A stretch of DNA of 64,000 nt from Podarcis liolepis. Taxonomy: Eukaryota. The stretch's first letter is position 1. Each line of letters starts with the position of its first letter. The translations under genes were made by a program, and so were the position numbers. Shown here piece by piece: positions 39,901 through 42,900 of this stretch. The DNA is taken from the NCBI GenBank assembly GCA_965112155.1, contig OZ218114.1; one strand, given 5' to 3'. Under the pieces are notes generated by a model, which had not been told where the DNA came from, searched no databases, and saw nothing but the letters and a program-made list of their open reading frames with translations.

Positions 39901-42900
39901 TTGATCAGTCATGGCTTTCCAGGATCTTGGGCAGAAAAGCCTCCTTCCCATGACCTGTTTCTCAAAAAATGGAATAGGAGATGCTGTACATGGAACTTGG
40001 AGCTCATGCATGGCAGACAGGTGCTTTGCCTGTGAGCTATGTCCCCTCCCCATTGCCTTTGGGCTGGGACAGATGTCAGTCTTGCTGGGCAGGTTAATGG
40101 AGTCAACATACTTGAGTCAAATCCCCTCACATACTGGGATGAGACTATGTGGCTAGAGAATATGGTGTTGCCTGCCTTCCCACTTAGTGTTGGCTGTCAC
40201 ACCATGCCACGGGCTGCCACGTCTCAAGAGTCAACATCCTTCCTGCAGGGGTGGGTGCAAATATTGACCTTCATAGAACGGTGTTAGCTTCTCTGCTTGC
40301 AGAACCTTGGAGGGGACCCATGGGCTGGCCTCTCGCCTCCTGCCCTGGGTTTGTTTGAGGTGCCTGACCTTGAATTGCAGCTCGTTGTTCTCTCTCCCTC
40401 CAAAACTGCTTGATGTAGTTAAGGGAAAGATTGGTCTCTGGGATATAGAAATGAAACACTGTTAGCAAGCGGCAGATTTAGAGCTCCTCAGGAAATGACC
40501 TGATCTCCACCTGAGATGCTGGCTTGTTCCCACAGCACTAACTCTTCTCCATCCTCTTAACTCTGCTTTCCTCCTGTGTGGTGGTGGTGGCAAATAGCTT
40601 TAATTGCTGCTCCTCTTTGGTCACAACATAATTGGCATTAAAATCTCTGAAGTCTGTACAAGTATACTATAGCCAAAGCTCATCTCAACACTCTCAGCAA
40701 TGAAATTAGGAGAGAACTCAGGAAGCCATGTTGTAGGTTACTCATCTGAGAGCCCTGTAAGAGCTGGTCCCTAGCACAGATCCAGGAATTGTGGGGGTGG
40801 GACACCCAACCTTTCCCTTCCCTGGAGGCAAGTGAGCCTTTCAGAGGCCCAGGCTGCCCTTATGTCTAACTTTTGCTGAAACATGGCAGCTTTTGCATAC
40901 ATGACCTGAACAATTCCCTTTGTGTTGGACATGCCCTTATTCTCTCCTCTTCTTGCCCAGGTGCACCTGGAAGTGCCCAAGAACAGAGTCTAGGTGGCGC
41001 TCTTGATGCTTCCTTCTAGCATCGCTTAGACCAAGTGCTGCAATGGTTGGATGGCCAGAGGGCCCCTGCTCCTTTAAGAGTGGCGCAAACGAAACCCTTG
41101 TCGCAGCCATCATTTACCCCACCTCACCATGTTCAGAAAGGCTGCACCAGTGGAAATTCTCCCCTCTGGGTAACTCTTAAAGGCTGCGGGGACTTGCCCC
41201 ATGTGCAGTATTCCTGGTGCGTGAGGCCTTGACTTCTGCTTGGGAGTCCTGTGTCAGAATGAGCTGCCTGTTTCTCCAGGAAGCTCGTTAGCTTCATTGG
41301 CCCAGTGCCAGCATCAAGATAGCACCTTCCCCCACAGTCCCCTTTTCCGGCAAAAAGGGAGCCCTCCTCCTTACACCTGCTGCAACCTTCTGAGCCTGCT
41401 CTTAACCTCCACCAATGCTTTGCTTGGGTTTTCTGTAGGCTGGCGTTTCTGCTTTCTCCAGAGTTTCCCTGGGCCCCCAAAGGGCGGTCTTTCTCCCACC
41501 CCCATTTCCATTAAAGAAACTCTTTTGAGAAAGCTGGGTGGTGGGTGCCTCCACTGCCTCGCTGTCCCCTCTCTCCACCCCCCTCGCTCCCTCTTTGGAG
41601 CATTCCAGGCATAGCCCCCACCCCTCCCTCTCACCAAATGTGCTCCTGCTTGTTGCAGATACTTGGCCAATAGGTCAAAAAGGCACACACTGGCAATGAC
41701 CAACCCCACTGCGGAAATCCCGCCCGACTTGCAGAGGCAGCTAGGACAGCAGCCCTTCCGCTCCCGGGCATCACACCTGGCACCCGACCAGCACCGGTGA
41801 GTAGGTGGCACCGGCCGCTTGGGCAGTTCTGCACCAGGGAACCTGTCCTGGGCAGAATGGCACCCCCTAGCAGAAAAAAAGAAAAAGGCTTTTTTTGATC
41901 AGGCACTTGAAGGGGCTTTCCAGGCCCTCTACATGCAGGAGAGGATTAGACAGGAGGCAGCTGTCGTTCAGGCCTGGGCATGGCATAGCAAGGGTGGGGC
42001 GCTTTGTTACTCTGTTGGGGAGCAGGAAACCTCTGTAAGAAAGGATGTGTCACAGCTGTTTCTGTCTGACCAACTGGCTTGCCTGGAGTTACAACCCAAA
42101 ACGCCACTTGACCCCATTTGTTGGAGGGGTAAATCAGCAGTGGAAGTTAGTTGAGAGAGTGTCAGCAGCTCCTCCTCCTGCCCCCCCCCCGACAAAAGCT
42201 CTTGACTTGACTCTCTTTCACATCATATGAACATCGACCACGTACATAGTTGCAGGATTGTTACCCTTGGTGGGCGGGGTTCACACAGCATCGTTTGAGT
42301 GACCTGAGGCTGTTGGAATAGTCTGATAGAGGTATGGGCTGCTACCTCACCATAACAGCCCTCAGAGGAGAATCTTTGAACCTTGTTTGTGTCAACAGCT
42401 CTGTCATGGGATTGGCACCACCAGAACTGTATGTGTTTGCCTGCAATGTTTCCTCGCTAAAATTCCAGGGGAGGGGGGTGGCTCTGTGGCAGAGGAACAA
42501 GTGCGACCTTTGACTGTTGCGAAATGGGTTCTACATGATATCACACACACACACCTGGACTCCTGCTGCAAGTCTGTCCACATATGAGCCGTAGCCCTTC
42601 GCCCCCTCCCACCCTGCTGTCCTCCTGTCCCTTTAATCCTAGGTGTGAGCTGCCGCCGCCAAGCCCCTTTCCTGACCCACCTTGCTGCGGCTTGCAAGCC
42701 TGTTTTGTAATTGTCGTCAGGATAGCTTCAGAGCCGAGCAGTGACATCGCCAGCTGGAACAGTTGAACTCTGAGCTGGCTGAGGCCATGCTGGCGCCACG
42801 CTGGAACCTGAGGAAAGCAAAGATAAGCTGTGCTGGCCCTGGGTAACTCCTGGTTAAGCTCTGCTGCAGGACAGGAGCACAGTCCTGTGTGACTCTGACA

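What the first reader, a model, noticed from the sequence alone, without database searches (positions are those of the whole stretch)
40920..41540. Candidate alternative last exon in intron 14 producing a short SIK3
Seen: a very clean acceptor (cccttattctctcctcttcttgcccag|G) at 40960/40961. Joined to exon 14 it reads [18 protein letters not shown] (41004-41006), followed by ~500 nt without recognisable repeats and ATTAAA at 41510 with U- and GU-rich sequence after it, ending just before exon 15. Inference: an isoform keeping the kinase, UBA, RRHT and RRAS sites but losing RRFS and the ~745-aa Q/H-rich tail. I recall a short C-terminally truncated SIK3 isoform reported in mouse brain but cannot confirm it uses this exon. 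It is invisible in the ORF track.
Basis: partly seen in the sequence, partly recalled or inferred. Interest (0 to 1): 0.7.

Follow-up and report, generated by a model that had tools for sequence, protein, structure and literature searches.

The report
Lizard short SIK3, likely by read-through
This lizard's gene for the sleep kinase SIK3 likely makes the short form already known from mouse brain, most likely by reading past exon 14 into an immediate stop codon, while the proposed extra last exon has a strong splice signal but is an untested second route.

Summary
The sequence features are real: acceptor at 40960/61, tail [19 protein letters not shown], ATTAAA at 41510. The gene is lacertid SIK3. 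The lizard has that in-frame stop (AG|GTAA, 38779-81). Assembled contigs from four studies hold intron-14 sequence upstream of the acceptor, which a spliced last-exon mRNA would lack. Best reading (0.55): read-through plus intronic polyadenylation near 41530, about 587 aa, 2.7-kb UTR. The spliced exon is not excluded (0.22). Its acceptor ranks first of 1,975 intronic AGs. Its first 16 bases are the window's only match both to a mouse Sik3-S-specific site and to a back-translated seal short-isoform tail (patterns chosen after the fact). No fetched protein carries the lizard tail. No raw reads were examined, so junctions, strand and 3' end are open. The scan's earlier notes hold nothing on this locus.

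The parts
37799..37954 (+). SIK3 exon 13, 52 aa, RRAS PKA site (S551 in the papers' numbering)
   Evidence: spliced joints on both sides; 52-aa exon and peptide match
38707..38777 (+). SIK3 exon 14, ends ...GEPDQEAVQ + AG (phase 2)
38775..38783 (+). Exon 14 donor GAG|GTAACA; third lowest of 20 donors in a leave-one-out matrix; read-through gives AGG TAA = Arg-stop (TAA 38779-38781)
38782..41530 (+). Predicted 3' UTR of the read-through short isoform (2,729 nt to the hexamer); the 3' end is inferred
   Evidence: contig pieces between 38823 and 41460 in four runs; length
38787..38819 (+). (CTG)11 repeat just inside intron 14; the read-laying tool skips 38778-38822, so the exon/intron boundary could not be bridged
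40936..40961 (+). Candidate acceptor: polypyrimidine tract and CAG|G, top score of 1,975 intronic AGs
40961..41006 (+). Candidate terminal-exon coding part (R)[18 protein letters not shown]; 40959-40975 resembles a mouse Sik3-S site and the seal tail; a second AG at 40992-93 would give R-W-R-S-stop
40637..40642 (+). First ATTAAA of intron 14; an X1 contig (40287-40682) runs across it
41510..41545 (+). ATTAAA with U-rich and GU/G-rich downstream sequence; candidate poly(A) signal, common to both routes
   Evidence: use not shown
41659..41796 (+). SIK3 exon 15, a cassette exon present in some database isoforms and skipped in others

Best explanation
The lizard SIK3 gene has an in-frame stop right at the exon 14 donor and likely makes the counterpart of mouse SIK3-S by leaving that donor unused and cleaving the RNA within intron 14, probably after ATTAAA 41510. 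Shown: the stop, the signal, the exon map, and intron-14 sequence in assembled contigs. Inferred: a continuous exon 14-intron 14 mRNA with a UTR of about 2.7 kb, cleavage near 41530, escape from junction-dependent decay because no splice junction follows the stop (general knowledge), and a protein of about 587 aa and 65 kDa with kinase, UBA, RRHT and RRAS but without RRFS and the 747-aa tail. On this reading 40961-41530 is the far end of that UTR, and the acceptor is a minor option or unused.
For: [quoted passage not shown] Mouse BAB30934.1, also on 14 Logan contigs, ends QEAVQR; so do a chimpanzee model (partial) and four multi-exon fish-type Logan proteins P0131, P0159, P0160, P0201. 14 of 15 short proteins holding exon 14 end at QEAVQR, and teleost locus L002 has AG|GTAAG. 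In one search, three of four runs join exons 10-14 at GT-AG and so hold spliced RNA; all four, from four studies, hold contig pieces between 38823 and 40963, upstream of the acceptor. The exon 14 donor is among the weakest in the gene.
Against: Arg-stop is automatic for a phase-2 GTRA donor: introns 11, 14, 15 and 18 all give it, so its conservation proves little. No contig bridges exon 14 and intron 14 (repeat skipped). The runs were picked for holding this stretch, are RNA only by guess, may hold pre-mRNA or DNA, and no silent stretch was laid as control; X9 shows no exon at all. No short squamate isoform is among the 34 squamate proteins listed (15 of the 18 lacertid cluster members were shown). 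0 of 5 exact look-ups of proteins cut at QEAVQR were on record (four squamates, one rodent). The mouse Sik3-S primer site matches the candidate exon start as well as it matches the intron start (24 vs 24).
Confidence: 0.55

Rival explanations
1. One reading: exon 14 is spliced to 40961, a skipped terminal exon ending near 41530, giving about 601 aa with a 14-aa tail and a 0.5-kb UTR, as the main route or an important second route.
For: Acceptor first of 1,975 intronic AGs. In 128 kb (both strands) the only 14-nt match with at most one mismatch to the mouse Sik3-S crRNA-1 target is at 40958, and the only match to the back-translated seal core (TWK plus stop start) is at 40965. Elephant seal RefSeq isoform X9 ends QEAVQ-RWRVPTWK, a tail that plain read-through would not give if its donor is GTRA (inferred). 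Two tripeptides are shared with it; 3 of 5,984 AG-started window peptides, the candidate's own frame included, do as well. The distal segment has few differences among relatives: 2 in 398 nt against 27 in 1,384 nt mid-intron, Poisson p 0.017.
Against: None of 200 proteins, nor the 34 new ones, carries the lizard tail. The mouse site is preceded by AT, not AG, and the mouse protein ends at exon 14. RWR and TWK are in opposite order in seal and lizard, and the whole seal tail found no match in introns 14-15 with up to 6 substitutions. The patterns were chosen after seeing the data; against any of four odd tails 35 of 5,984 peptides share two tripeptides. A 16-nt window with two mismatches does not hit the site. 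Where the seal exon lies is unknown. Low divergence is also expected next to cassette exon 15 (general knowledge); the count mixes runs, and 18 contig rows were not shown.
Confidence: 0.22
2. No productive short isoform in this lizard: intron 14 is only slowly spliced or detained because its donor is weak and exon 15 is optional; the acceptor and ATTAAA are chance decoys.
For: One acceptor this strong per about 28 kb and hexamer p about 0.29 are within reach of chance. No squamate short isoform on record. Some contigs also cover parts of introns 12, 13 and 15.
Against: Mouse makes the short protein abundantly, and fish-type multi-exon proteins end at the same residue, which brackets lizards.
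Confidence: 0.2
3. 40961 opens a poison cassette exon that is spliced on to exon 15, or the distal intron is an internal promoter for a C-terminal transcript.
For: The premature stop at 41004 would suit a poison exon. Teleost L002 has 7 CCAAT/ATTGG words and a GC box in the last 280 nt of intron 14; 3 NF-Y-type matches against 0.61 expected, 4 of 200 shuffles.
Against: The best donor between 40970 and 41620 scores 1.2 bits, below 19 of 20 real donors. The lizard has only 2 CCAAT words in the last 363 nt at a background of 2 per kb, and CpG o/e is at most 0.35.
Confidence: 0.03

Closest known systems
Mouse SIK3-S / SLP-S (Xu et al., bioRxiv 10.1101/2022.07.14.500024: abstract, passages, sections 6, 8, 15, 19, 21 read; Park et al., PMC7250853: passages; UniProt F6U8X4 and Q6P4S6-2 as named there, not fetched)
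   Same: Same gene, same cut point after exon 14, keeps kinase, UBA, T469 and S551 sites, loses the C-terminal half; stop right after exon 14; alternative polyadenylation
   Different: In mouse the protein, mRNA and effects of over-expression on NREM delta power are shown; in the lizard only the DNA signals and contig pieces are. The lizard also has a strong internal acceptor that would add 14 residues and remove 2.2 kb of UTR.
Elephant seal SIK3 isoform X9 (XP_064433478.1, predicted model; P0125)
   Same: Short SIK3 with a new short tail after QEAVQ-R; shares RWR and TWK with the lizard tail
   Different: 7-aa versus 14-aa tail, shared words in opposite order; exon position and support unknown
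Intronic polyadenylation, composite versus skipped terminal exons (general class, from own knowledge)
   Same: Weak donor, early stop, A(A/U)UAAA with GU-rich downstream element inside an intron
   Different: Here both kinds could share one poly(A) site; neither is shown by reads

Membership tests
SIK3-S isoform | Gene is SIK3 with the 52-aa exon 13 holding RRAS | tested here: met
   (99.5% identity to Podarcis SIK3 over 1,105 aa)
SIK3-S isoform | In-frame stop right after exon 14 | tested here: met
   TAA 38779-38781; automatic for a phase-2 GTAA donor
SIK3-S isoform | mRNA continues from exon 14 into intron 14 | tested here: inconclusive
   intron pieces present from 38823, boundary not bridged because of the CTG repeat
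SIK3-S isoform | Polyadenylation before exon 15 | tested here: inconclusive
   ATTAAA 41510 present; contigs cannot show ends; no raw reads examined
SIK3-S isoform | About 70 kDa protein, abundant in brain | not testable with these tools
   predicted 64.9 kDa; no record of the cut squamate proteins
Skipped alternative terminal exon | Strong 3' splice site | tested here: met
Skipped alternative terminal exon | Junction from the upstream donor to the acceptor | tested here: inconclusive
   none listed, but contigs show presence only and one joint row was dropped at the repeat
Skipped alternative terminal exon | Acceptor or tail conserved in other amniotes | tested here: inconclusive
   no orthologous amniote intron obtained; short matches to mouse and seal; tail absent from fetched proteins

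The most novel reading that the evidence does not exclude
SIK3 intron 14 is an amniote-old two-route switch for the short sleep kinase: read-through gives Arg-stop with a 2.7-kb UTR, while splicing to a conserved element (GTG(G)C...ACCTGG(A/C)AGTG; an acceptor in lizard and seal, AG lost in mouse) gives a short species-specific tail and a 0.5-kb UTR from the same poly(A) site, so UTR length rather than peptide sets the SIK3-S level; the short form itself would reach back to bony fish.
Probability: 0.18. Interest if true: 0.52.

Novelty: new member of a known kind. Interest (0 to 1): 0.3.

Why it matters
SIK3-S is reported as the most abundant SIK3 protein in mouse brain, and its mutant form raises NREM delta power. 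I found no paper on it outside mouse (searches). A lizard counterpart would date the isoform to the amniote ancestor at least and give reptile sleep work a primer-ready target. It does not change what is known about how the kinase works. The spliced route would be new in detail, but it rests on short matches.

Tried and rejected
no RNA holder listed on record; the 14 RNA labels among holders are guesses. One search, parts without cover and absences, none taken as evidence: no joint or loose end at 40961 is listed; one joint row and two loose-end rows were dropped at the repeat (the joint is probably the ordinary exon 14-15 one, inferred). The last contig ends were 41460 plus 11 loose letters (X1), 41407 (X10), 40963 (X9) and about 41500 (X2, estimated from a bin depth); none passes 41510, but they do not stop at one place and the next stretch is C-rich. 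Non-zero bins were 44 of 64 in intron 14 and 4 of 24 in the other introns, with runs chosen for intron 14. Mean contig depth before and after the acceptor was 2.33/2.19, 1.92/1.95, 2.67/0.08 and 0.34/2.02; the tool says such depth cannot rank parts. My first idea that the mouse primer marks the intron start (38837) was not upheld: it ties with 40963, p 0.07 over the intron; the five other crRNAs tested there match no better than chance (2 of 8 left out as low-complexity). The mouse SIK3-S plasmid end could not be read, as cells are cut at about 400 characters. The journal version of the Xu paper is not held; its figures and bioRxiv supplements, which may show the exon drawing, were not visible. 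The metagenome scan gave one locus, a teleost; its intron 14 aligns to the lizard's only in a pyrimidine run, p 0.05. The 14-aa tail was not searched directly in the protein database. The bacterial promoter scan is irrelevant here. Exon 1 is outside the window; lengths use Podarcis exon 1.

Full report
Locus. The window holds SIK3 exons 2 onward on the + strand. The translation of exons 2-21 is open over 1,105 aa and 99.5% identical to Podarcis SIK3, so this is a lacertid lizard. Exon 13 (37799-37954) is the 52-aa RRAS exon of the Sleepy papers, which fixes the numbering. Exon 14 is 38707-38777, intron 14 is 38778-41658, and exon 15 is 41659-41796.

Observation. The segment has one match in the genome. 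The acceptor is the best of 1,975 intronic AGs in 28.1 kb under a matrix made from 22 acceptors of this gene; one of 2,478 opposite-strand AGs scores as high. That is unusual but not beyond chance (about 0.1 for this intron). A hexamer within 570 nt has p about 0.29.

Exon 14 ends in phase 2 at CAG AG|GTAACA. If this donor is not used, the frame reads AGG TAA and the protein ends ...QEAVQR. The donor is third weakest of 20 by leave-one-out score. With a Podarcis exon 1 this gives 587 aa and 64.9 kDa; the spliced route adds 14 aa. Both keep RRHT and RRAS and lose RRFS, the three PKA sites of Table 1 in PMC8057676 (passages).

Literature. Xu et al. [quoted passage not shown] Park et al. (PMC7250853, passages) call the isoform 'ending at exon 14' a major form, citing unpublished data. 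PMC8666358 (passages) reports short and long brain isoforms. PMC9893547 (passages, supplements 3, 4, 6 in part) and its preprint (passages) speak of alternative splicing without detail and list eight Sik3-S crRNAs. PMC11807893 and PMC11789068 gave only reference-list hits; PMC8910253 (passages) uses a SIK3 minigene without naming the exon there. Figures and bioRxiv supplements were not visible and may show the exon drawing. Searches for SIK3 with 'alternative last exon' (0 papers), 'intronic polyadenylation' (2), 'intron retention' (4) and 'reptile' (3) listed nothing on this isoform outside mouse by title and abstract.

Proteins. Of 200 fetched proteins, 181 hold the exon 14 motif: 94 go on to exon 15, 75 go to the usual exon 16 starts, 6 end at R, and 6 have other continuations. 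Those ending at R are mouse BAB30934.1 (also on 14 Logan contigs), a partial chimpanzee model, a partial bird model that is no evidence, and three fish-type Logan proteins. In a search of short proteins, 14 of 15 with exon 14 end at QEAVQR; most are unspliced genomic frames, one is spliced. Teleost locus L002 has AG|GTAAG. This conservation is weak evidence, since any phase-2 GTRA donor gives it (introns 11, 14, 15, 18). No short squamate isoform is listed, and five exact look-ups of proteins cut at QEAVQR were all blank. No protein has the lizard tail.

RNA. Four contig sets from four studies were laid on 36700-42000, of 24 runs listed. Three join exons 10-14 at GT-AG. All four hold pieces of intron 14 upstream of the acceptor, between 38823 and 40963; X1 and X10 have listed pieces downstream (41063-41460). 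A transcript spliced 38777-40961 would lack the upstream part, so RNA (or DNA) with intron 14 unspliced is present. Limits: the runs were chosen for holding this stretch, tissue is unknown, the CTG repeat hides the exon/intron boundary, no silent stretch was laid, and contigs show neither ends, strand, level nor absence. No raw reads were examined.

What keeps the spliced exon alive. The target of the mouse Sik3-S ORF primer and crRNA 1 scores equally at 38837 and 40963, but its only 14-nt match with at most one mismatch in 128 kb is at 40958. The seal model XP_064433478 ends QEAVQ-RWRVPTWK; its TWK core, back-translated, matches once in 128 kb, at 40965. The three can be lined up as GTG(G)C...ACCTGG(A/C)AGTG, with an 8-nt insertion in the seal (my inference from a back-translation). 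Against this: the patterns were chosen after the fact, the mouse site follows AT rather than AG, the second shared word RWR is out of order, the whole seal tail finds no match with up to 6 substitutions, and no amniote intron 14 could be fetched. The distal intron differs less among relatives (2 in 398 nt versus 27 in 1,384; p 0.017), which fits a terminal exon, a 3'-end signal or control of cassette exon 15 equally.

Mechanism and verdict. Most likely (0.55) the weak donor is sometimes left unused and the RNA is cut near 41530, giving the SIK3-S counterpart; the stop and signal are shown, the mRNA, its end and the protein are inferred. The spliced terminal exon is a possible second or main route (0.22), a merely slow intron with decoy signals is about as likely (0.20), and a poison exon or internal promoter is unlikely (0.03). 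It works like mouse SIK3-S; membership is met for gene and stop, and inconclusive for transcript and 3' end. New member of a known kind, interest 0.3.

Noticed in passing
L002 (teleost sik3), last 280 nt of intron 14; L002 1262-1399: Seven CCAAT/ATTGG words and a GC box just upstream of exon 15; 3 NF-Y-type matches versus 0.61 expected. Possible internal promoter for a kinase-less C-terminal transcript in fish. The lizard has two such words (41296, 41412) and a GC box (41482).
   Followed up: partly
window 41659-41800: Exon 15 is a cassette exon (94 proteins include it, 75 skip it). Its donor also gives Arg-stop on read-through; a gerbil model (P0151) and a Logan protein (P0124) end there, and four primate models end with a different short tail after exon 15. 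The exon 14-16 region yields several truncation points.
   Followed up: partly
window 40682-40685: Contigs of organism A carry about 58 extra letters here (X1 joint, X2 loose end), an insertion polymorphism of unknown origin.
   Followed up: no
window 37468-37690: An X1 contig of depth 8 lies in the first part of intron 12, a possible further read-through.
   Followed up: no
window 61797-62768 +: Apolipoprotein A1/A4/E domain exon (PF01442, E 1.5e-38) downstream of SIK3 on the same strand; likely APOA1, as in the human gene order (recalled).
   Followed up: partly
window 34118-34650 and 44240-44750: Frames that read like LINE reverse-transcriptase remnants in introns 6 and 15 (family recalled, not tested).
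   Followed up: no
window 38787-38819: (CTG)11 repeat 10 nt after the exon 14 donor; could affect donor use, untested.
   Followed up: no
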